From Nitrospira japonica (lineage in GTDB: Bacteria; Nitrospirota; Thermodesulfovibrionia; UBA6902), in contig DYJL01000017.1 of assembly GCA_020723105.1 (NCBI GenBank), positions 1,395 to 65,394 on the forward strand: a stretch of 64,000 nucleotides of DNA, read 5' to 3'. How positions within the stretch are numbered: position 1 is the stretch's first letter; the number at the start of each line of letters is the position of its first letter. Below the pieces are notes generated by a model that was given only the letters and a program-made list of their open reading frames with translations, did no database searches and was not told where the DNA came from. The position numbers and the translations under genes were made by a program. Positions 1 to 61,267 of the stretch are shown here, in pieces.

Positions 1-1854
1 TTCTATTTCATCAAAAAGGATTACAGAATATGGTCTCCTGCGAACTATCTCTGTCAATTGCCCTCCCTCCTCATATCCGACATATCCGGGAGGCGCACCT
101 GTTAACCTGGATACATTAAATCTTTCCATATATTCCGACATATCAATTTTTACAAGCGCATTTTCATCGTTAAAAAGAAACTCTGTTAATGCCTTCGCAA
201 GTTCTGTCTTTCCGACACCGGTTGGACCAAGGAAGAAAAACGAACCAATAGGCCTTTTTCTGGCTTTTAATCCTGCACGTGATCTTCTGATGGCCTTAGA
301 AATAGATTTTACTGCTTCATCCTGGCCTACTATCCTCTTATGTAGATCATCTTCCATGCGGAGGAGTTTCTCCGATTCCTTTTCCTCAAGCTTGGCAAGG
401 GGAATACCTGTTATTTTCGACACAGTAAATGATATGTCATCCTCCGTAACAGTAGGCGTTTCTTTCTGCTGATTGTCACGCCAATTTTTATAAAGATTGT
501 CATACAACTTTTTTATCCTGTCTTCCTCACTCTTTACAGAAGCACCTTTTTCAAAATCATGAAGTTTTACATAAAGGTTCTTTTCCTTGTTAAGTCTTTT
601 TAATTCTTTCTCAAGTTCACGAAGTTCCGGAGGCATTGTATAACGTTTCAGTTTAATTCTTGCCCCTGTCTCATCCATAACATCAATTGCCTTGTCAGGT
701 AGAAATCTTTCCGCTATATATCTGTCTGAAAGATTAACACATGCTTTTACAGCTTCATTAGCTATCTTAACCTTGTGATGTAATTCATATCTATTTTTCA
801 AACCATTGAGTATTTTTACACTCTCATCCAATGTAGGCGGTTGTAAGTATATAGGCTGAAAACGTCTCTCAAAGGCTCCGTCTTTCTCAATGTACTTTCT
901 ATACTCATCGGGAGTAGTGGCACCTATACATTGAATCTCCCCTCTTGATAAAGCGGGTTTGAGCATATTTGAAGCATCTATTGAACCCTCTGCTGCCCCT
1001 GCACCAATGAGTGTATGCAGTTCATCAATAAAAAGTATTATATTATCGCACTGAGTTATTTCTTTCATTACAAGTTTCAGTCTTTCTTCAAACTGGCCCC
1101 TGTATTTAGTGCCGGCAATGAGAGCTCCAAGATCGAGGCTTACAATTCTTTTATCAATCAGATTTTCAGGGATATCTTCTGCAACTATTCTCTGCGCCAA
1201 TCCCTCTACTATTGCAGTTTTACCAACTCCGGACTCTCCTATTATTACAGGATTATTTTTTACCCTTCTCCCCAGGATTTGCAGCACTCTCTCAATCTCG
1301 CTCTCCCTTCCTATAACAGGGTCAAGCTTCCCCTCCCTCGCAAGTTGCGTTATATCCCGCCCAAATTCGTCAAGGGCAGGCGTATGGGTTTTCTTTTCTT
1401 TTGCTGCATGCTGTATTTTACGAGTAGACAGATTGATAGCAAGTTGTCTTACAGCAAGGAGATTAGCTCCAAGGCTTCTGAGTATCTTGCCCGCAATTCC
1501 GGATTCTTCCCTTATTAATCCAATAAGGAGATGTTCACTTCCAATATAACTGTGACCGAGCAATCTCGCTTCTTCCACAGCAAGCTCCAATACTTTTTTG
1601 GCTCTTGGAGTAAATGGTATATCACCGAAAGTAAGAATGTTGGAACCGGAAGGCAGATTTCTTTCAACTTCCATACGAAGTTCTTCTGCTGAGAGACCCA
1701 TTTTCTTAAGGATAATCATTGGAAGGCTTTCTTCTTCTCTCAGCAATCCAAGGAGTAAGTGTTCTGTCCCGAGATAATCATTCTGCCGTTTTTCGGCTTC
1801 TTCACGAGCACATATTATTACTTTTCTGCCTCTTTCAGTAAATTTCTCGAACAT
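1..1854 (-). CDS. clpC: ATP-dependent Clp protease ATP-binding subunit ClpC (3' end runs off window)
   Basis: Manual translation from the ATG at 1854 gives [36 protein letters not shown] (Clp-N repeats), Walker A GESGVGKT and a second [19 protein letters not shown]. Missing from the ORF track because it is open at the edge. Confidence 0.95.
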
Positions 1855-2029
1855 CTTTATTCCTTAAAATTAATATATCTTTTCCATGCCTTATTGTCAA
1901 GGTAACCAAACGGTCATTTCATATAGATTTTTATTGAAGTTATAGGGGAACTCCAGAAAAGCTACTTTGTAATCTGTAAAAATATGGGACTCCAAGAAAG
2001 AATAAGGGATGGGAAACCTTCAGTAATTT

Positions 2030-2494
2030 TTAAGTTTTTTTCCGATTGTAAACAACATCCTTAATTTCCTGCATAAATTCTTTTATGTCTTTAAATTGTC
2101 TATATACTGAAGCAAATCTGACGTACGCAACTTCATCAATTTCCTTAAGACCATTCATTATTTGTTCTCCGATAAGAGAACTGGATATTTCTCTCTCTCC
2201 TGATCCTAAAAGATTTTTTTCAATTCTCTTTACTAATGCTTCCCGTGCTTCAACACTTACAGGCCTTTTCTCGCAGGCCTTTTCAAGACCCTGAAGAATT
2301 TTCAGCCTGTCAAAAGGTTCTCTTCTGCTATCCTTTTTAATAACATGAGGCATAATATTTTCGATTCTCTCATAACTTGTAAAACGTCCCTCGCATTTCA
2401 AACATTCCCGTCTGCGTCTTATAATGTCGCCTTCTTTACTCTGTCTTGAGTCAATAACTTTGTCTTCAATATTTCCACAGAAAGGACATTTCAT
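2030..2494 (-). CDS. nrdR: Transcriptional repressor NrdR
   Basis: [30 protein letters not shown] zinc ribbon plus ATP-cone ending [10 protein letters not shown]. Confidence 0.97.
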
Positions 2495-2512
2495 CTTAAT
2501 ATTGTAAATTTC

Positions 2513-3766
2513 TTAAGCTTCCACTTCCTCATACACAGGATATTTCCTGCATAAAGCCCTAACCTTTTCTTTAACATGAGCAATAACCGAAGCATCCTGG
2601 TGATTATGCAGTACTTTTGAAATAAGATCTGCAATAACTACCATCTCAGGCTCTTTCATCTTTCTGCTTGTAACTATTGGCGTACCGATTCTTATACCAC
2701 TTGTTATTGTAGCAGGCAAGGTATCATGTGGTATAGAATTTTTATTCACTGTAATACCAGCCAAATCAAGCGCTACTTCAGCATCTTTACCGGTAATATT
2801 TCTGTCAGTGAGATCTACAAGCATAAGATGGGTATCCGTGCCGCCTGATATTATTTTAAAACCTTTATTTGTAAGAGTGTCGGATAGTTCTTTTGCATTT
2901 TTAATAATCTGAAGCTGATAATGTTTAAATTCTTCTGTCATGGCTTCTTTAAAGGCCACTGCCTTTGCAGCAATGACATGCATAAGAGGCCCGCCCTGCA
3001 ATCCAGGGAAGACCATTTTGTCAACGACCTTAGCATATTCTGCCCTGCACATTATCATTCCGCCACGGGGACCTCTAAGAGTCTTATGAGTAGTAGTAGT
3101 AACAAAATCTGCATGGGGTACAGGTGAGGGATGATTGCCTGTTGCAATAAGTCCTGCAATATGGGCTATATCTGCAAGAAAATATGCATTGACCTCTTTT
3201 GCTATTTCAGACAGAATTTTGAAATCAATAATCCTTGAATATGCGCTTGCACCTGCTAACAGCATTTTAGGTTTATGTTTTTTGGCAAGCTTTCTGACCT
3301 CGTCATAATCAATTAAACCTGTCTTTTTATCAACTCCATAAAAATACGTCTTGTAAATCATCCCTGAGAAGTTTATCTGGAAACCATGGGACAAATGCCC
3401 GCCGTGACTCAGGCTCAAACCAAGTATCTTGTCCTTCGGTTTTAATACCGAAAAATATACAGCCATATTTGCCTGAGTACCTGAATGCGGCTGAACATTA
3501 ATATGCTCGACACCGAAAAGTTCCTTTGCTCTTTTAATAGCAAGGGACTCCACAATATCAGCGTACTCACACCCTCCATAATATCGTCTACCGGGATATC
3601 CTTCCGCATATTTATTGGTAAATACAGAACCCTGGGCCTCAAGCACCGCCCTGCTTGCATAGTTTTCTGATGCTATAAGAACAATGTTTTCTCGTTCGCG
3701 TTTGATCTCTTCTACAACTGCGCTATAAATTTCTGGATCACTCTTTTTAAGTTCAACTGTTTTCAT
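2513..3766 (-). CDS. glyA: Serine hydroxymethyltransferase
   Basis: [22 protein letters not shown] and the PLP motif [14 protein letters not shown]. Confidence 0.98.
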
Positions 3767-7900: not shown

Positions 7901-9607
7901 ATGTTGGTTGAAAAAAGACAAATAAAAAGATCTGATGCATTTCTTGTTGTAGAATTCAGACCCCACGGTAAAACAACAGAATATTCACTTGGTGTAACAA
8001 GTAATATTTCTCACGAAGGTTTCAGTCTGGACTCACAGGTTTTTGATTTTAAACCCGGGGAGACCCTGGAATTCAGATTAAAACATCCTTATAGCAACCT
8101 GTCTGTTTCTGCAACAGGAAGAATAATCTGGAAAAAAGATTCCTGGTACAACTCTTTAACAGGGATAAAATTCATTGATATGGACGAGGAGGCTAAAACC
8201 AGAATAACAAACCTCATCCATATGGAGCAGAATAAACCTTCTGCGTTATCTCTTAACAAAGATACCGATATCTCCATGACGCAGGAGGATAAAGAATCAT
8301 CTTCAACTATAACTATTAAAGAAGAGCCCTCCCCCTGGATGCCTCCTGATAATGGACAAACGGACCCCGAGGAAATTCATGCTGCACCTGAAAAGAAAAA
8401 AAATATAAACCGTTTATACATTACAACAGTTACGATTGCTGTCATTATTTTAACTGCTACCTTTTACCTGATACTCAACGATTCCAAAGAAGAGAAAAAA
8501 AATGATATTCCTCCGTCTGTCAGTTCAGTTTCTCCCCAACAAACAGACAGGGGCCATTCCCTGGCAGATAACGATGAGACAAAGACTGACTCGCTGCCGG
8601 CACAGGAATTAACTGAGTCAGTTCAAACACAGACTGTGCTGGTGCAAGGAGATAAAAAAGAAAGTTCAGAGCAACCTGCTGTAAATCCAATTAAAAATAA
8701 ACAGCTATCTTCTGCAATTAATATACAAAACAGGCCCTCTATCTCACAGGAAATACCAAAGTCAGAAACATTTCCAGTGTCAGACTCTAAAGGTGAAATT
8801 GCAAAAAAAACCGGTAAAAGTGATTCGACTTCACTGGAAACAACTCTCAATATTCCTGAGAAGACAGAAGAAGAAATCAAACAAAGTTCCGACTCTAAAA
8901 CGATAACAACTACGGAAATAAAAGAGCAGTCAAGGCCCGAGGCCCCTTCCATGCTCAGAAACATTCCGGCAAATCAGGATGTTGAACTTCAAAAAATTCA
9001 GATTCAAAATACCCAGACCCCGCAAAACCGTTCGATATTATTTGAGGAATCATTCAACAGTAATTCTAACAATTGGGAAATATTTAATACTAATATGGCT
9101 TCAGCACAAATAAAAAACGGCGAATACCGGATTGAAAACAAGAGGAAAAAAGGTCCGCACATTATATTCGCCCGCCAGACCCTTCCGTCTGATTCGGACT
9201 TTGTAACAGAAGCTTCAATAAAGACTGAAAGAAACGCAAGTAATTATTCTTATGGCTTGGTTGTTAAAAACTCGGATAACCGTTCTTACGGCCTGGTTAC
9301 GGGCGCCAAAGATACCCTGAATAACTATGCCTTTAAGATTAAAGAAGACGGCTCCTATTCAATTACGAGATCTCATAACGGCACTTCACAGGAGATTGCC
9401 GGTGGAAATGTTAGAAATTCTGGCCTCAATCAAAATGCAGTAAACACTTTAAAGATTGTAAGGCAAGGCAATAATATGAAATTCTATATTAACGATAACT
9501 TTATCCATGAAATTTCAAATTTATCTTTTTTTGGAAATAAAACAGGCTTTATCGTTGAGGGAGAATCCAAGATTGCTGTTGAAAAAATACGTACAGAAAC
9601 CCAATAA
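7901..9607 (+). CDS. PilZ-domain bitopic membrane protein with a long S/E/K/T/P-rich linker and a C-terminal beta-rich extracytoplasmic domain
   Basis: RQIKR (RxxxR) and NISHEG (D/NxSxxG) PilZ motifs; one hydrophobic helix LYITTVTIAVIILTATFYLIL; C-terminal LFEESFNSNSNNW..YGLV..NTLKIVRQG..FYIND resembles a ConA/DUF1080-like fold. Confidence 0.75.
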   Translation: MLVEKRQIKRSDAFLVVEFRPHGKTTEYSLGVTSNISHEGFSLDSQVFDFKPGETLEFRLKHPYSNLSVSATGRIIWKKDSWYNSLTGIKFIDMDEEAKTRITNLIHMEQNKPSALSLNKDTDISMTQEDKESSSTITIKEEPSPWMPPDNGQTDPEEIHAAPEKKKNINRLYITTVTIAVIILTATFYLILNDSKEEKKNDIPPSVSSVSPQQTDRGHSLADNDETKTDSLPAQELTESVQTQTVLVQGDKKESSEQPAVNPIKNKQLSSAINIQNRPSISQEIPKSETFPVSDSKGEIAKKTGKSDSTSLETTLNIPEKTEEEIKQSSDSKTITTTEIKEQSRPEAPSMLRNIPANQDVELQKIQIQNTQTPQNRSILFEESFNSNSNNWEIFNTNMASAQIKNGEYRIENKRKKGPHIIFARQTLPSDSDFVTEASIKTERNASNYSYGLVVKNSDNRSYGLVTGAKDTLNNYAFKIKEDGSYSITRSHNGTSQEIAGGNVRNSGLNQNAVNTLKIVRQGNNMKFYINDNFIHEISNLSFFGNKTGFIVEGESKIAVEKIRTETQ

Positions 9608-9611
9608 CATC

Positions 9612-10289
9612 ATGAAATACTTAAGATCACTGATTGCAATAGTTCTAATACTCAGCCTCTATAACTGCTCTACCATGAGTGTTAATAAGCAGGTAACCAG
9701 TCTTTCAGCAATCACAGCAAACAAAACCTACCAACTCAGGGTGCGCTCAGGGAATATATACTTGGACAAAATTATTCATGAATATGCCTCAACCGGATTC
9801 GGACCTTATCTGCAAATGTCCAGCAAGAAGATTCCTAACAGTCTTATCGAAATAGTTTTTACAGGCACATCCAAACATGGAGACGCAGGTTATACAACAA
9901 ATGTCCTGTATGGAGATACCTGGTACACTGCCGATGATAATTCAGGCATAAAAAGTTACAACCCGATGGCAGAAACAGAAATCAGTCCCGGCAGGATATT
10001 ATCATCTCAGCAAAGTACCATGATTGTGACTCTTAAAGATCTTGAAGGCAAAATTTTATGGGGTGCACACTATAACTACAAAGGCGCTTACGAGGTTTCC
10101 GGCTTGTATACAAAAACGGCTGATGAAGCTGTCAGGCTTTCTCTTGACAGAATTCTCCAGCAGTTTGAAAAGGATTTTATAATAATCCCGGAACCCGGGA
10201 ACAAAACGCAGAATAAAAAACCTACTATCGCCCTTATTGTAGAAAAGCAAAAATCTCCGGCACCTCAAACAAGTCTTCCTCATGATTGA
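9612..10289 (+). CDS. Putative lipoprotein of unknown function
   Basis: MKYLRSLIAIVLILSLYNC signal peptide ending in a lipobox-like Cys. Confidence 0.6.
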   Translation: MKYLRSLIAIVLILSLYNCSTMSVNKQVTSLSAITANKTYQLRVRSGNIYLDKIIHEYASTGFGPYLQMSSKKIPNSLIEIVFTGTSKHGDAGYTTNVLYGDTWYTADDNSGIKSYNPMAETEISPGRILSSQQSTMIVTLKDLEGKILWGAHYNYKGAYEVSGLYTKTADEAVRLSLDRILQQFEKDFIIIPEPGNKTQNKKPTIALIVEKQKSPAPQTSLPHD

Positions 10290-10357
10290 ATCGCCCAGCA
10301 GATTTTGATAGAATTGAACAAAAATTAAAACCTTAACTGTAATAATCAAATCTGAAT

Positions 10358-11377
10358 TTGTCATACAACAATAAAAATACCATAGGGGTCCTTTTGCTGA
10401 ACATGGGAGGTCCCGATTCTCTTCATGCTGTAAGACCTTTCCTGTATAATCTTTTTTCAGACAGGGACATTATCAGACTCGGACCGTCCTTCATGCAAAG
10501 ACCTATGGCATGGCTTATCTCAAGTTTTCGTTCAGGGAAAACCGAACAGATGTACGAGCAAATTGGTGGAAAATCACCAATACTTGATATCACTACTGCC
10601 CAGGCAGAGGCCCTGGAGAAAGAACTGAACAGTTGCAGTTTGCAAGTCCCAGGTTCCAGGCTGTTCAAAGTCTATGTAGGGATGCGCTACTGGCATCCTT
10701 TTATTAAAAATACCGTAGATAAAATTATCCGGGATGACATTAAAGATCTCATGGTCCTTAGCCTATATCCTCATTATTCAAAGGCTACAACAGGATCAGC
10801 AATCGCCGATTTTAAAAAGGCGATTACTGAATTTCAAATTTCAAATTTCAAATTTCAAATTCATTATATTGATCGCTGGTATGATTTTTCTCCCTATATA
10901 GATGCTCTCTCTGCAATTATTGCTGAAGGGATATCAGAATTCAAAGGTGAAAGTTTTGATTTGCTTTACAGCGCGCACAGCTTGCCAAAGTCGTTTATTG
11001 ACGAAGGAGATCCATATCTGGACCACATTAAAGCTACAATCGCAGCGGTTAACTCATCCCTTGTCACTCGTTACTCATTGCTTTTCAATTGGCACCTCTC
11101 TTTTCAAAGCAAGACAGGGCCGGTTAAATGGTTAGAGCCCTCAACAGAGGAAACAATTAAAACCCTTGCACACTCAGACTGTAAGAATTTGTTCGTTGTG
11201 CCAATCAGCTTCGTATCAGACCACATTGAAACACTATACGAAATAGATATTCTCTATAAAAAATTAGCGGAAGAATATGGGGTAAATCTAAAAAGATGCA
11301 AAGCCTTTAATACTGACAGTAAATTTATCCTTGCAATAAAAGACTTAATTCAGAACAGGCTTAAGGGGGTAAAATGA
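10358..11377 (+). CDS. hemH: Ferrochelatase
   Basis: LLLNMGGPDS, GMRYWHP, LYPHYSKATTGS, SAHSLP, WLEPST, FVSDHIETLYEID. Confidence 0.95.
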   Translation: MSYNNKNTIGVLLLNMGGPDSLHAVRPFLYNLFSDRDIIRLGPSFMQRPMAWLISSFRSGKTEQMYEQIGGKSPILDITTAQAEALEKELNSCSLQVPGSRLFKVYVGMRYWHPFIKNTVDKIIRDDIKDLMVLSLYPHYSKATTGSAIADFKKAITEFQISNFKFQIHYIDRWYDFSPYIDALSAIIAEGISEFKGESFDLLYSAHSLPKSFIDEGDPYLDHIKATIAAVNSSLVTRYSLLFNWHLSFQSKTGPVKWLEPSTEETIKTLAHSDCKNLFVVPISFVSDHIETLYEIDILYKKLAEEYGVNLKRCKAFNTDSKFILAIKDLIQNRLKGVK

Positions 11378-12762
11378 AACGAGTAGTCATCGTCGGCGGT
11401 GGAATTTCAGGGCTTACAGTTGCATATTCACTCCTTAACAGTCACAAGTTGCAAGTTACAGATTCCAGGTTTGACATTACAGTTTTTGAGTCTGATAACA
11501 GGACCGGCGGAAAAATATGGACCGAAAAAACAGATGGTTTCCTTTGCGAGAAAGGAGCAAACGGCTTTCTTGACAATAAACCGCAAACCCTTAAATTATG
11601 TAACAGTCTGGGCATTGATCCACTACGCAGCAATGAAAATTCTAAAAAACGGTATATTTTTGTAAATGGGCAACTCAATGCCTTGCCGGAATCACCACCT
11701 GCATTTATAAAGTCAGACCTTCTTTCATGGAGGGGAAAACTCCGGATACTGTTTGAGTATAATGCACCAAAGGGACCTGAAGATGAGACTGTCGCTGATT
11801 TTATTATTCGGCGGCTTGGACGTGAAGCGCTTGATAAACTCATAGATCCGATGGCATCAGGAATTTATGCCGGAGATCCGTACAAAATGAGCATGAAAAG
11901 CTGTTTCTCAAAAATAAAAGACCTCGAACAGGAACACGGTGGCCTCATAAAGGCATTACTTAAAATACGCAAAGAAAAAAAACATCTGCAGAAAGCCCCC
12001 GGTGAGAAAGTATCCGTTGCTCCAGGCGGCACTCTGACATCATTTTTTAACGGAGCACAAACAATAACAGACACCCTTACAGCGCAACTTGGAAACAGCA
12101 TACATCTTGGAGTTTCAGTTCACGGGATTGAGAAAAACGGTGACATGTATCGGCTCTACACATCCAAAGATACTGTAGAAGCAGATATCGTAATTCTTGC
12201 ATCGCCAGCTTATGCCACTGCTAATATCCTGAAAGATTTTGACAGCGATATTTCAAAAACACTCTCTGACATCCCCTACCCTCACGTATCCGTTGTATGT
12301 TTCGGCTACAAAAAAGAAAAAGTCGGGCACCCATTAAATGGTTTTGGTTTTCTGGTCCCTTATATTGAAGGACGAAAAATTCTCGGCACTCTCTGGGATT
12401 CAAGCATATTCCCGAACAGGGCTGCTGAGGGATATACCCTGTTAAGAACCATGGTCGGCGGAGCCAAGGCACCGGAAATGGCAACACTCTCTGATGAAAA
12501 AATTATAACCCTGGTATTTGATGAACTGAAACCGATACTGGATCTTAAAAAAGATCCTGACATGGTAAGAATCTACAGGTGGGAGAAGGCCATACCCCAG
12601 TATGTTCTTGGACACAGCCGAAAGTTGCAACTGATTGAAGAAAGATTAAAAAATTATCCAGGATTATATCTGACAGGCAACGCTTACAAAGGAATCGGGA
12701 TGAATGATTGTATAGAGCATGGTTACAGGCTGGCAGATGAAATAATAAGCAATTTCAAGTAA
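11374..12762 (+). CDS. hemY: Proto/coproporphyrinogen oxidase, HemY type (FAD)
   Basis: IVGGGISGL FAD-binding motif, GIYAGDP, GFGFLVP, RWEKAIPQY, GIGMNDCI. Confidence 0.93.
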   Translation: MKRVVIVGGGISGLTVAYSLLNSHKLQVTDSRFDITVFESDNRTGGKIWTEKTDGFLCEKGANGFLDNKPQTLKLCNSLGIDPLRSNENSKKRYIFVNGQLNALPESPPAFIKSDLLSWRGKLRILFEYNAPKGPEDETVADFIIRRLGREALDKLIDPMASGIYAGDPYKMSMKSCFSKIKDLEQEHGGLIKALLKIRKEKKHLQKAPGEKVSVAPGGTLTSFFNGAQTITDTLTAQLGNSIHLGVSVHGIEKNGDMYRLYTSKDTVEADIVILASPAYATANILKDFDSDISKTLSDIPYPHVSVVCFGYKKEKVGHPLNGFGFLVPYIEGRKILGTLWDSSIFPNRAAEGYTLLRTMVGGAKAPEMATLSDEKIITLVFDELKPILDLKKDPDMVRIYRWEKAIPQYVLGHSRKLQLIEERLKNYPGLYLTGNAYKGIGMNDCIEHGYRLADEIISNFK

Positions 12763-12796
12763 GCGGGCATTGCAACAAACCCTCACAATCTTTTTC

Positions 12797-13831
12797 TCAC
12801 ACATCTTCCGTATAAATCTCAAACAGAGACAGGCATAATGCTGCAATCAGCGGCCCGAGGATAAAACCGAGAAAGCCAAGAAATTTGATCCCGCCGAGGA
12901 CGCTGAAGAATACAAGAAGTGTATGAAGCTTTGCCTTGCCTCCAATTATTAAAGGCTTCAAGACGCTGTCCACGCTGCTGATTATCAAAGCCCCAAAAAG
13001 CATAAGGCCTATTCCCTTTCCCAGACTGCCTGACAAGATTAAGATAAAAGCCGCCGGCCCCCACACAAGAAAAGTCCCAAAGAGAGGGACTAAAGAGGTA
13101 ATCGCCATTACAGTTCCCCAGAATACAGATGAAGGCAGTCCTAATATCCAGAAGGCCAGCCCGCCAAGCATCCCCTGAGCAAGCCCTACAGCAATCTGCC
13201 CGTATACTGCCGCTACTACTGTTTCCTTGACACGCTCTACCAATTTGTGCTTTTGTTCTTCGGAAAAGGGAAGAAGTTTTTTCAGATACTCGGTGAGTGT
13301 TTCGCCATCTTTTAAAAAATAATAAATGGTCAAACACATAATAATAAAATTTAATGCAAGCACAAATACGTTCGCAAAGATATCCGAAATGTGTTTTACA
13401 ATATATCCGCCGACTGACTTTAAAGTAGCTACAAGGCTTTCCTGAAGATTAAAGCCTTCCAGCATGTTGTAGGACGAAAGTTTCTGAAGCAGCTCCTGAA
13501 GCTGTGGATATGACTGTATATTTGCGATGGACTCAAGGCCCTTTTCTTCAATTGCGCTATATACCCCTGTAATTTCACCAGTGAGAGATCTGACAATAAA
13601 AGAAAACGGTCCAAACATTGTTATCATGATTGCAATCAATGTAAGAAGAGATGCAGCCCATGGGCGTTTAAGGAATTTCATAAACAAATTGTAAAGCGGA
13701 TAAAAAGTAATGCTCAGCACCATAGCCCAGGCGATTGTGATAAGGAAGGGATTTAATATTTTATAGAAAAGATAGAACAGTAATAGAACTATTGCTAAAT
13801 ATATTATTGTGGATAAGCGTTCAGTCTGCAT
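12797..13831 (-). CDS. AI-2E family transporter
   Basis: Multi-TM; YYFLKDG, LVPLFGTFLVWGP, DSVLKPLIIG, GFLGFILGP. Confidence 0.9.
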   Translation of the reverse strand: MQTERLSTIIYLAIVLLLFYLFYKILNPFLITIAWAMVLSITFYPLYNLFMKFLKRPWAASLLTLIAIMITMFGPFSFIVRSLTGEITGVYSAIEEKGLESIANIQSYPQLQELLQKLSSYNMLEGFNLQESLVATLKSVGGYIVKHISDIFANVFVLALNFIIMCLTIYYFLKDGETLTEYLKKLLPFSEEQKHKLVERVKETVVAAVYGQIAVGLAQGMLGGLAFWILGLPSSVFWGTVMAITSLVPLFGTFLVWGPAAFILILSGSLGKGIGLMLFGALIISSVDSVLKPLIIGGKAKLHTLLVFFSVLGGIKFLGFLGFILGPLIAALCLSLFEIYTEDV

Positions 13832-37491: not shown

Positions 37492-37503
37492 ATCCCCGTT
37501 AAA

Positions 37504-37531
37504 GAATACAGGATTCGGGATACAGGATGCA
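37504..37531. repeat. Degenerate heptamer array
   Basis: GAATACA GGATTCG GGATACA GGATGCA between rph and radC. Confidence 0.6.
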
Positions 37532-41252: not shown

Positions 41253-41756
41253 TCAATGAACCTCCGTCGTAATCTGAATTTCTTTTGAAAGCAATCCCTC
41301 TGACAGCCCCACTGCTGTAATCCTGTAATAATATTTCACATTGGGTTTAACGTTCTTATCTGTGAAAGCAGGAGTGACCGTCTCGCCAACCAGCATCTGG
41401 CCCTCGCCTGTTGTGGTGGAGCGATAAATTCTGTACAGTTTTATATCCTGTCCCTGAACCTCATCCCATGTAAGCACAATGCTTTGCCGGGTATAAACAC
41501 CTTTTAGTCCTGCGGGGGAATCCGGAGTGGTTACCTGTATTGTTTGCTCTTCACGCATTTTCTGCTTTGACAAATCCTCTTGTCTCTCTCCCTCTTTTTG
41601 GGTTTCATCCTTCTTTCTTTCAACAGCTCTTTCATCACGGGGTTCAATTGCAACAGGATCGCCCCTTCTGCCGCAAGCAGTAAGCGAAGTGAGAAGTAAG
41701 AAGTGAGAAGCAAGAAGTAAGATATTAACGCTCAGAAATAATTTTTTATTTTTCAC
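41253..41756 (-). CDS. Lipoprotein with fibronectin type III domain
   Basis: LTACGRRGDP lipobox; P.GL..LTWD..YRIYR..FTD..V.P..YYYRITAV. Confidence 0.8.
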   Translation of the reverse strand: MKNKKLFLSVNILLLASHFLLLTSLTACGRRGDPVAIEPRDERAVERKKDETQKEGERQEDLSKQKMREEQTIQVTTPDSPAGLKGVYTRQSIVLTWDEVQGQDIKLYRIYRSTTTGEGQMLVGETVTPAFTDKNVKPNVKYYYRITAVGLSEGLLSKEIQITTEVH

Positions 41757-41766
41757 TTCCCACTTT

Positions 41767-43137
41767 TCACTTCCCAGTTTTTATTTTCCTGATCCTTGCA
41801 AGCACCCTCCTTCCGGAGGTCCCGCCGAAAGATTTCTTACTGTCAATTGAAGTCTTAACTGTAATGTAATCAAAGACATCCTTCCCGATAAGCCTTGAAA
41901 ACTGCTGAAACTCCCTCGTACTCAACTCATTCAGGGCCTTCTTATTATCAATGCAATATCTCACGATTTCACCGGTAACCCTGTGAGCCTCGCGGAAAGG
42001 CATGCCTTTTCTGACAAGATATTCAGCAAGGTCTGTGGCAGTCGGAAACCCCTTCTCTAAGGCCTGCTCCATCGCTTCTTTATTAAAGCGCATTCCAGGC
42101 AGCATCTCTGTTAAAACCTGAAGGCTTGATTTCACTGTATCAACTGTATCAAACAAAGGCTCTTTGTCTTCCTGCAAATCTCTGTTATATGCAAGCGGCA
42201 ACCCCTTCATGACAGTGAGTATGGCCACAAGATGTCCAAACACCCTTCCCGCCTTGCCCCTTATCAATTCAAGGACATCAGGGTTTTTCTTCTGCGGCAT
42301 GATGCTGGAACCGGTCGTAAAGGAATCGGGCAATTCAACAAATCCGAACTGATCGTTATTCCATATAATTATTTCTTCTGAAAGCCTTGACAGATGCACC
42401 ATCAAAGTACTTGACGCTGAAATAAATTCAATGACAAAGTCCCTGTCAGATACAGCATCCATGCTGTTTTCCGATATTCTGGGAAACTTTAAAAGCTGTG
42501 CTACATATTTCCGGTCAACAGGGAACGTTGTTCCAGCTAATGCAGCAGAGCCAAGAGGCATCACATTCACCCTCTTCAGACAGTCTTTAAATCTCTCCAG
42601 GTCCCGCTCCAGCATCTCAAAATATGCAAGCAAATGATGCGCAAGCAGCACAGGCTGTGCTTTCTGGAGATGCGTAAATCCGGGCATAACAGTATCAACA
42701 TGTTTCTCTGCGGCAGAGACCAGAACTCTCTGAAAGTTCTTAAGGAGTTTTAAAACATCTGCAATTTCATCCCGCAGAAAAAGCCTGATATCAAGAGCCA
42801 CCTGGTCATTCCTGCTCCTTGCCGTATGAAGCTTGCCACCAACAGGGCCTATTTTCTTGATGAGGGCCTGTTCTATATTCATATGCACATCTTCAAGGCT
42901 GTCAAGAAACCTGAACTTGCCGCCCTGTATTTCCGTCTTTATTTCATTCAGCCCCTGAAGGATTAAACCGGCATCTTTTTGAGGTATTATCTTCTGCCTG
43001 CCGAGCATCTTTACATGTGCGATGCTGCCCTCGATGTCGTATTTCCAGAGACGGACGTCAAAAGACAGTGAAGAGGTAAAATTTTCCACCACCTTTTCCG
43101 TCTTTTCTTTAAACCTTCCGGACCAGAGTTTTTCCAT
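41767..43137 (-). CDS. argH: Argininosuccinate lyase
   Basis: KLWSGRF, KLHTARSRNDQV, GSSIMPQKKNPD, YNRDLQEDK. Confidence 0.98.
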   Translation of the reverse strand: MEKLWSGRFKEKTEKVVENFTSSLSFDVRLWKYDIEGSIAHVKMLGRQKIIPQKDAGLILQGLNEIKTEIQGGKFRFLDSLEDVHMNIEQALIKKIGPVGGKLHTARSRNDQVALDIRLFLRDEIADVLKLLKNFQRVLVSAAEKHVDTVMPGFTHLQKAQPVLLAHHLLAYFEMLERDLERFKDCLKRVNVMPLGSAALAGTTFPVDRKYVAQLLKFPRISENSMDAVSDRDFVIEFISASSTLMVHLSRLSEEIIIWNNDQFGFVELPDSFTTGSSIMPQKKNPDVLELIRGKAGRVFGHLVAILTVMKGLPLAYNRDLQEDKEPLFDTVDTVKSSLQVLTEMLPGMRFNKEAMEQALEKGFPTATDLAEYLVRKGMPFREAHRVTGEIVRYCIDNKKALNELSTREFQQFSRLIGKDVFDYITVKTSIDSKKSFGGTSGRRVLARIRKIKTGK

Positions 43138-61160: not shown

Positions 61161-61267
61161 ACATGGGTTGTAAAGAGAAGAGAAAGTGAAAGCAGGCAGT
61201 ATGAAGTAAGCAGTAAGCACGGTAAGTTTATTCTGCTTACTATTTTAAACAAGGGAGGTGCTGACAA

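What the first reader, a model, noticed from the sequence alone, without database searches (positions are those of the whole stretch)
10631..11474. Four different heptamer tandem arrays inserted in frame in hemH and hemY
Seen: AGTTGCA GTTTGCA AGTCCCA GGTTCCA (10631-10658, SCSLQVPGS); ATTTCAA x4 perfect (10831-10858, FQISNFKFQI); TAACTCA TCCCTTG TCACTCG TTACTCA TTGCTTT (11050-11084, NSSLVTRYSLL); and AGTCACA AGTTGCA AGTTACA GATTCCA (11440-11467, SHKLQVTDSR). All lie between conserved motifs and leave the frame intact. A 7-bp period does not fit codon structure, so a DNA-level process rather than protein selection is likely. Inference: something seeds heptamer arrays, and they survive only in tolerant loops. 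A one-unit slip in the perfect ATTTCAA tract would frameshift ferrochelatase, so it could act as a contingency switch.
Basis: partly seen in the sequence, partly recalled or inferred. Interest (0 to 1): 0.7.

Follow-up and report, generated by a model that had tools for sequence, protein, structure and literature searches.

The report
Heptamer repeat arrays inside heme genes
Short 7-base tandem repeats, part of a repeat family that litters the whole genome of this groundwater Nitrospirota bacterium, sit in frame in loops of two heme-synthesis enzymes as tolerated passengers rather than as a genetic switch.

Summary
One is a perfect array, AATTTCA x4.6 at 10830-10861. The other three are decayed arrays, weak alone but matched by perfect arrays at the same codon positions in orthologs.

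They belong to a genome-wide family. Perfect period-7 runs of 3 or more copies number 54 in the 3.13-Mb genome, against 0 in four shuffles and 1-2 for periods 6 and 8. Of the 208 stronger TRF arrays, 84 lie inside ORFs. All 16 host ORFs tested are housekeeping enzymes.

In HemH, HemY and AroC of related Thermodesulfovibrionia/Nitrospirota genomes, the same loops carry heptamer arrays with different units. Some also hold nested GC-rich palindromes. So this is a DNA-level process filtered by frame, stop codons and loop tolerance.

Sites 1 and 4 fit a gain of 21 nt (3 units, 7 codons). Sites 2 and 3 are replacements, not pure insertions.

Unit choice is non-random (AGT/ACT-rich, few families), and 23 array pairs are inverted.

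The contingency-switch idea found no support. Unit-number variation could not be measured because only contigs were available.

The closest known kinds are cyanobacterial STRR, Beggiatoaceae TAACTGA repeats and general heptanucleotide SSR excess. I rate it a new variant of a known kind.

The parts
10358..11377 (+). hemH (ferrochelatase) ORF, 339 aa, host of sites 1-3
   Evidence: ORF list. Pfam PF00762 E 3e-106. TIGR00109 E 1.5e-96. AF2 model pLDDT 91.
10631..10663 (+). Site 1: decayed heptamer array of the AGTTCCA family (AGTTGCA GTTTGCA AGTCCCA GGTTCCA GGCTG), encoding SCSLQVPGSRL in the loop after LEKELN
   Evidence: Lag-7 matches 13 of 21. The closest relative has perfect AGTTCCA x4 here, and 14 of 36 relatives have a strong lag-7 array here. 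The loop is 11 aa, against 2-6 aa in most other ferrochelatases. pLDDT is below 50 at model residues 100-102.
10830..10861 (+). Site 2: perfect AATTTCA x4.6 array encoding (E)FQISNFKFQI(H)
   Evidence: TRF 100% matches, score 64. The tract is identical in G006, and 10 of 36 relatives have strong arrays here with other units. It is a helix end plus loop, with mean pLDDT 70 for the block.
11050..11084 (+). Site 3: decayed ACTCGTC-family array encoding (N)SSLVTRYSLL; it replaces the loop KRLSxxPYNIxxL of array-less alleles
   Evidence: Lag-7 matches 17 of 28. 12 of 36 relatives carry the SSLVTRHSL-type segment, several with near-perfect ACTCGTC units. Array alleles are 12 aa against 14 aa.
11374..12762 (+). 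hemY-type protoporphyrinogen oxidase ORF, 462 aa, host of site 4; overlaps the hemH stop by 4 nt
   Evidence: ORF list. PF01593 and TIGR00562 E 3.5e-112.
11440..11472 (+). Site 4: decayed array AGTCACA AGTTGCA AGTTACA GATTCCA GGTTT encoding SHKLQVTDSR(F)
   Evidence: Lag-7 matches 15 of 21. It is exactly 21 nt longer than the L016-type allele (AAC AGTTCAC AGTTT). L002 has AGTTCCA x3 + AGTTACA here.
41679..41781 (.). Other heptamer arrays in the window: GAAGTRA x5.3 (41686-41722) and a period-14 CACTTCC-type array (41750-41781) of opposite orientation, at a gene start/intergenic boundary on the minus strand
   Evidence: TRF; sequence and ORFs.
37506..37528 (.). Weak heptamer array ATACAGG x3.3
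   Evidence: TRF score 32; lag-7 locus at 37500.
61196..61219 (.). Weak heptamer array GCAGTAA x3.4
   Evidence: TRF score 34; lag-7 locus at 61190.

Best explanation
The four segments belong to a genome-wide and lineage-wide family of heptanucleotide tandem arrays. One is fresh and three are decayed. The family resembles STRR-type simple sequence repeats: about 4-5 units per array, few unit families, and AGT/ACT-rich units.

Shown:
- A DNA-level process with a 7-nt register makes such arrays all over the genome.
- Arrays are denser per base in non-coding DNA.
- Inside genes, arrays persist only where they keep the frame, have no stop codon in any of the three phases they are read in, and fall in variable segments at helix-strand junctions. 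Two of the three modelled HemH sites are low-confidence loops; site 3 overlaps a confident helix end.
- The same HemH, HemY and AroC loops are hot spots across related Nitrospirota. Each lineage has its own internally homogeneous unit.

Inferred:
- Arrays arise and turn over by slipped-strand or template-switch replication.
- In essential ORFs only steps of three units (21 nt, 7 codons) survive. A loop therefore toggles between about 1 and about 4 units, and each re-expansion makes a fresh perfect array of whichever unit survived. That is concerted evolution.
- Between turnovers the array decays by point mutation, which is the state of sites 1, 3 and 4.
- Patchwise recombination between lineages also moves array alleles.

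The arrays are passengers and a mutational hazard for hemH and hemY, not regulators.
For: Genome-wide excess:
- TRF rows: 501 at period 7, against 66 at period 6 and 174 at period 8.
- Perfect runs of 3 or more copies: 54 at period 7, against 0 in 3 triplet shuffles and 1 Markov-3 simulation. At 4 or more copies: 22 against 0.

Location and filters:
- Of 208 arrays (TRF score 40 or more): 84 ORF-internal, 32 in the first 25 aa of crude ORFs, 2 C-terminal, 90 non-ORF. Coding fraction is 90%.
- Non-ORF units carry stops on both strands in 51 of 90, against 12% of random heptamers. Sense-strand units are stop-free in 64 of 84 internal arrays.
- All 16 tested host ORFs are housekeeping enzymes.

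Orthologs:
- Strong lag-7 arrays at site 1 in 14 of 36, site 2 in 10 of 36 and site 3 in 4 of 36 relatives, against 0-1 for lags 5, 6, 8, 9 and 10, and 0 of 47 in loci titled as other phyla.
- Units differ between lineages by 1-4 substitutions while each array is homogeneous.
- AroC shows the same pattern in another loop.

Length steps:
- Site 4 equals the native allele plus 21 nt.
- The site 1 loop has mode 11 aa in relatives, against 2-6 aa elsewhere.

Structure: sites 1 and 2 are low-confidence loops in an otherwise confident model.
Against: - Site 2 array alleles are +15 nt and site 3 alleles are -6 nt relative to array-less alleles of the order. A pure +/-3-unit slippage model does not explain all sites.
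- Site 3 overlaps a helix end predicted with high confidence, not an obviously disordered loop.
- Unit usage is far from random: 91 classes against a simulated mean of 184, a top class of 23 against a simulated maximum of 6, and AGT/ACT in 50% of units against 17%.
- The exact (ATTTCAA)4 tract recurs at 53 places in 16 of 64 genomes of the order. This argues for a sequence-specific or copy-and-paste component beyond local slippage.
- The 42 nt that include the site 2 array are 100% identical between the window and G006, while the genes are 69% identical. Simple neutral turnover does not predict this.
- The HemH tree is too poorly resolved to separate single origin from recurrent origin.
- Gene calls are crude ORFs of my own, not an annotation.
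Confidence: 0.75

Rival explanations
1. The arrays are arms or remnants of a small mobile or copy-and-paste element. Blocks of a few preferred heptamer units, often as inverted pairs that form a hairpin, are inserted or converted into loops. They are not grown in place from a native heptamer.
For: - There are few unit families, and the exact (ATTTCAA)4 tract is at 53 places in 16 of 64 genomes.
- 23 of 80 adjacent array pairs are inverted, against 2 direct.
- The same composite, (AAGAGTC)n followed by (GACTCTT-like)n, lies in AroC of this genome and in HemH site 1 of G004.
- L012 and L025 are about 90% identical but differ abruptly over about 70 nt at site 3 and at sites 1 and 2, which indicates patchwise replacement.
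- L002 has the same unit, AGTTCCA, at sites 1, 2 and 4.
- Length changes of +15 nt and -6 nt fit replacement better than unit slippage.
Against: - The four arrays in the window have no inverted partner and no significant fold (z -0.75, -1.47, +0.17, +0.38).
- No terminal signature, target duplication or associated enzyme was identified.
- Site 4 is exactly the native allele plus 3 units of a heptamer already present in array-less alleles.
- The native sequences at sites 1 and 4 both begin AAC-(A/G)GTTCAC, so the same unit could grow independently at both.
Confidence: 0.2
2. The perfect ATTTCAA tract is a contingency locus: one-unit slips switch ferrochelatase off and on in the population.
For: - The unit length is not a multiple of 3, so a one-unit slip would shift the frame (sequence).
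- Heptanucleotide repeats do drive phase variation of HMW1A in Haemophilus influenzae (PMC8262952; search listing and start of abstract only).
- The hemH of G002 is frameshifted inside this very tract.
Against: - The G002 shift is a 1-nt length difference (32 against 33 nt), not a unit. That assembly has only 10 contigs, so a long-read indel error is possible; that is my inference.
- The tract has the same 4.6 copies in G006.
- HemH read as one open frame in all 36 relatives aligned; G002 was left out of that alignment.
- 0 of 208 arrays in this genome splits a gene by +/-1 unit. All 5 candidates proved to be arrays at gene ends.
- The hosts are housekeeping enzymes, not surface or restriction genes.
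- Four units is short for a hypermutable tract (my own knowledge).
Confidence: 0.04
3. The arrays are kept by selection for a function. Candidates are binding sites on DNA or mRNA for a heptamer-reading protein (cold-shock-type OB-fold proteins were suggested for TAACTGA repeats), a translational pause element between folding units, or a flexible 7-aa-periodic linker.
For: - Arrays persist at the same loop across genomes whose HemH is only 47-55% identical, and they stay homogeneous.
- The site 2 tract is fully conserved between two species.
- MacGregor 2015 (PMC4679880, passages read) proposes regulatory roles for intergenic TAACTGA repeats.
Against: - 17 of the 36 relatives lack a heptamer array at site 2 and 24 of 36 lack the site 3 array allele, so the arrays are dispensable.
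- Units, and therefore peptides, differ freely between lineages.
- There is no Rfam match and no significant RNA fold.
- Sites 1, 3 and 4 of the window are decaying.
Confidence: 0.08
4. The periodicity is chance or a by-product of codon usage and amino-acid repeats.
For: Sites 1 and 3 alone score at a level reached 5-14 times in triplet-shuffled windows.
Against: - The perfect 32-nt tract and the genome-wide counts have no counterpart in any shuffle.
- Other lags give 0-2 loci at the 15-of-21 level, against 10 for lag 7.
- Orthologs have perfect arrays at all four sites.
Confidence: 0.01

Closest known systems
STRR (short tandemly repeated repetitive) heptanucleotide sequences of heterocystous cyanobacteria
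   Same: Both are tandem arrays of a 7-nt unit, dispersed in many copies, built from a few unit families. The cyanobacterial units as I recall them (CCCCAGT, CAACAGT) share the AGT core enriched here. Rehm 2015 cites three tandemly repetitive heptanucleotides in Calothrix PCC 7601 (PMC4692102, passages read).
   Different: The phylum differs: related loci here are titled Nitrospirota/Thermodesulfovibrionia. Here 84 of 208 arrays are inside ORFs of housekeeping enzymes, in frame, whereas STRR are described as mainly intergenic. The STRR unit sequences are recalled from memory, not seen in a call.
TAACTGA direct repeats of marine Beggiatoaceae, some Cyanobacteria and Bacteroidetes (MacGregor 2015, PMC4679880)
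   Same: [quoted passage not shown] That unit has stops when read forward and is translatable only in reverse (passages read). Non-ORF units here likewise carry stops.
   Different: There, one unit dominates and related heptamers rarely repeat; the repeats lie mostly just upstream of start codons. Here there are 91 unit classes and many in-frame coding arrays.
GGGNATC / GGGGA(C/T)T quadruplex-forming heptamer repeats of Xanthomonas and Nostoc (Rehm 2015, PMC4692102), and the general excess of heptanucleotide SSRs in prokaryotes reported by Mrazek and co-workers in 2007, as cited there and in PMC4679880
   Same: Both show over-representation of heptameric SSRs and a clear preference for about four units (abstract and passages read). 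Here the perfect runs peak at about 3.5-4.6 copies.
   Different: Those repeats are G-rich, and the four-unit bias is attributed to G-quadruplex formation. [quoted passage not shown] Here A/T-rich units such as ATTTCAA show the same copy number, so G4 formation cannot be the general cause.
SSR contingency loci, e.g. heptanucleotide repeats controlling HMW1A in Haemophilus influenzae (PMC8262952)
   Same: A 7-nt unit whose copy-number change could alter expression.
   Different: No copy-number polymorphism was seen or testable here, the gene is housekeeping, and the tract is short. Only the listing and the start of the abstract of that paper were seen.
Small dispersed repeats (SDR) nested in tandem heptameric repeats of Nostoc (Elhai et al. 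2008, Genome Res 18:1484)
   Same: In relatives' hemH and hemY, small GC-rich palindromic elements sit inside or between heptamer arrays. One example is the insert splitting the CGATTCA array of L018.
   Different: No such nested element lies in the window's hemH or hemY. The paper is not held. I saw only its reference entry in PMC3116915; its content is recalled.

Membership tests
Heptanucleotide SSR / STRR-like dispersed tandem repeats | Head-to-tail copies of a 7-nt unit | tested here: met
   Site 2 is 100% periodic over 32 nt. Sites 1, 3 and 4 score 13 of 21, 17 of 28 and 15 of 21, and have perfect counterparts in orthologs.
Heptanucleotide SSR / STRR-like dispersed tandem repeats | Many dispersed arrays; period 7 over-represented relative to other periods and to shuffles | tested here: met
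   There are 54 perfect runs of 3 or more copies, against 0 in four shuffles and 1-2 for periods 6 and 8. TRF gives 501 rows at period 7.
Heptanucleotide SSR / STRR-like dispersed tandem repeats | A limited set of preferred unit sequences | tested here: met
   208 arrays fall into 91 classes against a simulated mean of 184. The top class holds 23 against a simulated maximum of 6.
Heptanucleotide SSR / STRR-like dispersed tandem repeats | Mainly intergenic location | tested here: inconclusive
   Density is about 5-fold higher outside crude ORFs, yet 84 of 208 arrays are ORF-internal. The gene calls are crude.
STRR sensu stricto (cyanobacterial) | Occurrence in heterocystous cyanobacteria with the canonical units | tested here: not met
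   Related loci are titled Nitrospirota/Thermodesulfovibrionia, and the units differ.
Phase-variable contingency locus | Unit-number polymorphism within a population or between close strains that switches the gene | not testable with these tools
   Only Logan contigs were available, and they break at the 31-mer repeat. Indirect data argue against it: the copy number is the same in G006 and 0 of 208 arrays splits a gene.
Phase-variable contingency locus | Host gene of a class where ON/OFF switching is adaptive (surface, restriction-modification and similar) | tested here: not met
   The hosts are ferrochelatase and protoporphyrinogen oxidase. The other hosts are housekeeping enzymes too.
Palindromic mini-element (REP/MITE/SDR-like) | Inverted repeat or stable hairpin | tested here: not met
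   The four window segments fold no better than shuffles. Inverted array pairs exist elsewhere in the genome (23 pairs) and in AroC.

The most novel reading that the evidence does not exclude
A sequence-biased heptamer-amplifying process with an AGT/ACT core operates in Thermodesulfovibrionia and other Nitrospirota. It continually regenerates 4-unit arrays at fixed loop positions of essential enzymes. The reading frame locks these arrays into a toggle between about 1 and about 4 units (+/-21 nt). Arrays of one unit family at many loci keep each other homogeneous by ectopic conversion, and some form in-frame inverted pairs. This would be a standing source of 7-aa-periodic loop inserts in dozens of housekeeping proteins, and a new case of concerted evolution of a non-triplet repeat inside coding sequence.
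Probability: 0.3. Interest if true: 0.65.

Novelty: new variant of a known kind. Interest (0 to 1): 0.5.

Why it matters
Heptanucleotide repeats are known to be the most over-represented long SSR class in many prokaryotes. Their origin, and the reason for the 7-nt register and the roughly four-unit size, remain unexplained. They are described as mostly intergenic.

This genome and its relatives offer a natural experiment. The same process acts inside conserved, alignable enzymes. Gains, losses, unit turnover and length steps can therefore be read against orthologs at codon resolution.

A/T-rich units show the same four-unit preference, which argues against G-quadruplex formation as the general cause.

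There are practical consequences too:
- Such arrays inflate loop lengths.
- They create identical 31-mers that break assemblies, as seen at this very tract.
- They place frameshift-prone tracts in essential genes.

Tried and rejected
- **Read-level test of unit number.** The look-up of sequencing runs gave only Logan contigs. When laid, the contigs end or start at 10830-10861 because the tract is a repeated 31-mer. Summed depth in that bin was 1071 against about 113 in the probable source run, and 1800-3150 against at most about 37 in any other bin in three other groundwater runs. No copy-number information came out of it.
- **The search for related loci with HemH alone** found nothing. The alignment query worked.
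- **HemH tree to separate single from recurrent origin.** It was star-like: 2 of 33 inner branches were well supported.
- **Rfam.** No match at E up to 1 in 9500-13000.
- **RNA folds of the four segments.** Not better than shuffles.
- **Search for genes split by +/-1 unit.** There were 5 candidates among 208 arrays. All were arrays abutting gene ends, none a split gene.
- **Literature.** No paper held both 'heptamer repeats' and 'Thermodesulfovibrio'. Of the 10 listed of 24 hits for heptamer + tandem repeat + Nitrospirae + in-frame, none was relevant by title and abstract start.
- **Elhai 2008** could not be read.
- **A pure +3-unit insertion model for all four sites** was rejected. It fits sites 1 and 4 only.
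Full report
**1. What is in the sequence**

The four strings are at the stated coordinates.
- They lie in one ORF matching ferrochelatase (10358-11377, PF00762, TIGR00109).
- The other host is an ORF matching protoporphyrinogen oxidase (11374-12762, PF01593, TIGR00562). It overlaps the hemH stop.

TRF finds one clear array in this stretch: AATTTCA x4.6 at 10830-10861, with 100% matches. The other three segments are degenerate. Their lag-7 matches are 13 of 21, 17 of 28 and 15 of 21.

Within the 64-kb window:
- The 13-of-21 level is reached at 29 lag-7 loci, against 9-28 at other lags and 5-14 in triplet shuffles. Sites 1 and 3 are not significant alone.
- At 15 of 21 there are 10 lag-7 loci, against 0-2 at other lags and in shuffles. 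Three of the 10 are in hemH/hemY.

Sites 1 and 4 are versions of one unit family. They match 27 of 36 bases ungapped, the only match of 24 or more in the window.

**2. Where the segments sit in the proteins**

An AlphaFold2 model of HemH, built from 36 aligned orthologs, has mean pLDDT 91. Model numbering is ORF numbering plus 4.
- Site 1 (model 95-105) is the loop between helix 79-96 and strand 106-113. pLDDT is below 50 at residues 100-102.
- Site 2 (162-173) is the end of helix 146-163 plus the loop before strand 171-175. Mean pLDDT for the block is 70.
- Site 3 (236-247) covers the end of helix 224-243 and a short loop. It is predicted with high confidence, so it is not an obviously floppy loop.

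Against human ferrochelatase, the window protein is longer by 3 aa at site 1, 1 aa at site 2 and 4 aa at site 3.

**3. The genome as a whole**

The window lies in a 3.13-Mb, 94-contig genome with 42% GC.
- TRF gives 501 rows at period 7, against 66 at period 6 and 174 at period 8. Periods 21 and 42 come almost entirely from one giant repeat gene on contig C56.
- Perfect period-7 runs of 3 or more copies number 54. There are 0 in three triplet shuffles and one Markov-3 simulation, 2 for period 6 and 1 for period 8. For 4 or more copies the figures are 22 against 0.
- The length histogram of perfect runs is bimodal: 98 runs of 17-20 nt, 11 of 21-23 nt, 42 of 24-34 nt and one of 40 nt.

Context was assessed with crude ORF calls of my own, which give 90% coding. 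The 208 arrays with TRF score of 40 or more split as follows:

| Context | Arrays |
|---|---|
| ORF-internal | 84 |
| Within the first 25 aa of an ORF (possibly 5' leaders) | 32 |
| C-terminal | 2 |
| Outside or partly outside ORFs | 90 |

Arrays are therefore several-fold denser in non-coding DNA but are numerous in genes.

All 16 host ORFs that I fetched, those with internal perfect arrays of 25 nt or more, match housekeeping families:
- PurL, chorismate synthase, AspRS, TilS, MnmA, LarC, LolA;
- a PyrK-like protein and a CofH/MqnC radical-SAM enzyme;
- an oxidoreductase fusion;
- six genes of a cobalamin cluster on C94.

Non-ORF units carry stop codons on both strands in 51 of 90 cases, against 12% of random genomic heptamers. 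Sense-strand units of internal arrays are stop-free in 64 of 84. This fits a filter by translation.

**4. Orthologs**

Titles of related hemH loci name Nitrospirota/Thermodesulfovibrionia MAGs, many from groundwater. I aligned HemH from 36 genomes of the same order and class. G002's broken copy was left out.
- **Site 1.** Nearly every lineage has something different: AGTTCCA x4 in the closest relative, GGTTCAC x4, CCGTCAC x4, ACTCGTC x4, AGGGGTC x4, CAGAATA x4 and others. Some hold two arrays with a GC-rich palindrome between them.
- **Site 2.** 19 of 36 carry a heptamer array or its remnant (units ATTTCAA, AGTTCCA, AAGTTCA, CCAAACT, AGGGGTC and more). Of the other 17, 14 have a short array-less loop and 3 carry a GC-rich insert instead.
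- **Site 3.** 12 of 36 have the ACTCGTC-type segment. The rest mostly have KRLSxxPYNIxxL.
- **Site 4 (HemY).** The window, L002, L003, L009 and L022 have array-type inserts. Most others are 6-7 aa shorter.

With a strict criterion (18 or more of 21 lag-7 matches), arrays are present as follows:

| Site | Relatives with a strong lag-7 array |
|---|---|
| Site 1 | 14 of 36 |
| Site 2 | 10 of 36 |
| Site 3 | 4 of 36 |

Control lags 5, 6, 8, 9 and 10 give 0-1, and 47 loci titled as other phyla give 0.

Five named loci duplicate unnamed relatives. After removing them, four further Nitrospirota-titled genomes have strong site 1 arrays: L047, L053, L061 and L104. Their HemH is 47-55% identical to the query.

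AroC shows the same behaviour in a loop after NKDWxNW. Most of 30 relatives have a heptamer array there, each with its own unit.

**5. Length relations**

- **Site 4.** The window and L002 are exactly 21 nt longer than the L016-type allele. That allele already holds one AGTTCAC unit after the Asn codon.
- **Site 1.** Loop length has its mode at 11 aa in relatives (10 of 36). In 51 of the 79 other loci it is 2-6 aa. This fits a base loop of about 4 aa plus 7.
- **Site 2.** Array alleles are 14 aa against 9 aa, a gain of 15 nt.
- **Site 3.** Array alleles are 12 aa, against 14 aa in the order's array-less alleles and 6-7 aa in more distant ferrochelatases.

So two sites fit a gain of three units and two are replacements.

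L012 and L025 are about 90% identical in DNA. They differ abruptly at sites 1, 2 and 3, over about 70 nt at site 3. This indicates patchwise replacement by recombination.

**6. Signs of something beyond simple slippage**

- Unit usage is strongly non-random. The 208 arrays fall into 91 classes (simulated mean 184). The top class, AACTCTT/AAGAGTT, has 23 arrays (simulated maximum 6). AGT/ACT occurs in 50% of units against 17% expected.
- The exact (ATTTCAA)4 tract occurs at 53 places in 16 of 64 genomes of the order. The reversed control pattern occurs at 0. The tract is concentrated in the window's genus and in one other family.
- Of 80 adjacent array pairs, 23 are inverted and 2 are direct. 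In AroC of this genome, an inverted pair, (AAGAGTC)n then (AACTCTW)n, is read through in frame.
- The 42 nt that include the site 2 tract are identical between the window and G006, although the genes are 69% identical.

I cannot explain these points by local slippage alone. They keep a copy-and-paste or inter-array conversion model alive.

**7. The switch hypothesis**

- Reads were not available. The contigs break at the tract.
- The hemH of G002 is frameshifted inside the tract, but by one base, not one unit.
- HemH read as one open frame in all 36 relatives aligned.
- None of the 208 arrays splits a gene by +/-1 unit.
- There is no Rfam match and no significant fold.

I rate the switch at about 4%.

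**8. Comparison with the literature**

- MacGregor 2015 (PMC4679880, passages read) describes TAACTGA repeats. [quoted passage not shown]
- Rehm 2015 (PMC4692102, abstract and passages) reports GGGNATC-type repeats. [quoted passage not shown]
- STRR units and the content of Elhai 2008 are recalled, not seen.
- My searches found no report of heptamer arrays in Thermodesulfovibrionia or Nitrospirae, or of in-frame positional persistence with unit turnover. These searches cover only the held library.

**9. Verdict**

The thing is a member of the known class of heptanucleotide SSR/STRR-like arrays. Three features look new: dozens of in-frame arrays in housekeeping enzymes, hot-spot loops shared across a phylum with lineage-specific homogeneous units, and in-frame inverted pairs.

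The mechanism is inferred, not shown: slippage or template switching under a frame filter, with some conversion or recombination.

Noticed in passing
G000 contig C94, about 60-84 kb (outside the window): A cobalamin-biosynthesis cluster (CbiG/methylase fusion, TP_methylases, CbiX-CbiC, CbiA, CobQ) is unusually dense in heptamer arrays. About 11 arrays are listed there, six of them perfect arrays inside six different genes. The genome average is about 0.07 per kb. The window's arrays are also in tetrapyrrole genes.
   Followed up: partly
L134 (G000:C6, AroC, around residue 96-125): An inverted pair of heptamer arrays, (AAGAGTC)n - 21-nt spacer - (AACTCTW)n, is read through in frame in chorismate synthase. 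A potential long hairpin therefore lies inside a coding sequence.
   Followed up: partly
Whole genome G000: 23 of 80 adjacent array pairs (150 nt or less apart) are inverted repeats of the same unit, against 2 direct. Several sit just after stop codons, for example C64:1594-1657, and could act as terminator-like hairpins.
   Followed up: no
Relatives' hemH/hemY: L003, L004, L006, L009, L012, L021, L022, L023, L025, L029, L030: GC-rich palindromic mini-elements are inserted in frame next to or between heptamer arrays. They translate as PPxxKGGxGG, EPALSLSKG and similar. L025 has a further 33-nt element nested in one of them. None lies in the window's hemH or hemY.
   Followed up: partly
L037 (G002:C8, hemH): hemH is split into two frames by a 1-nt length difference inside the site 2 array. 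The assembly has only 10 contigs, so it could be a sequencing error or a real pseudogene.
   Followed up: partly
L012 vs L025 (G033, G029): Two hemH genes about 90% identical in DNA differ abruptly and completely at sites 1, 2 and 3. Site 3 is array-type in one and native-type in the other. This suggests recombination patches.
   Followed up: partly
G000 contig C56, about 23-49 kb: A giant gene region is built of 21- and 42-nt tandem repeats, with units such as GGTGATGTTACTAATATTAAA and more than 100 copies. It accounts for nearly all period-21 and period-42 TRF rows.
   Followed up: no
window 10828-10871 in runs X1-X4: The 31-mers of the (AATTTCA)n tract have summed contig depth of about 1071 against 113 in the probable source run, and 1800-3150 against at most about 37 in any other bin in three other groundwater metagenomes, with many different flanks. 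The same array word is therefore common in many contexts in these habitats.
   Followed up: partly
window 10635-10639 in run X3: A related strain's contig has a compensating +1/-1 indel pair inside the site 1 array. It restores a cleaner AGT-register (AGTTGTC AGTTGCA ...). It rests on a single contig at depth 6.7.
   Followed up: no
L098, L073, L059, L106, L114 (loci titled Deltaproteobacteria, Geobacteraceae, Thermodesulfobacteriota, Acidobacteriota): Heptamer arrays of 4-4.9 units also occur near hemH in other phyla: 14 arrays in 178 kb, none at the HemH loop sites. This is consistent with a widespread bacterial phenomenon.
   Followed up: no
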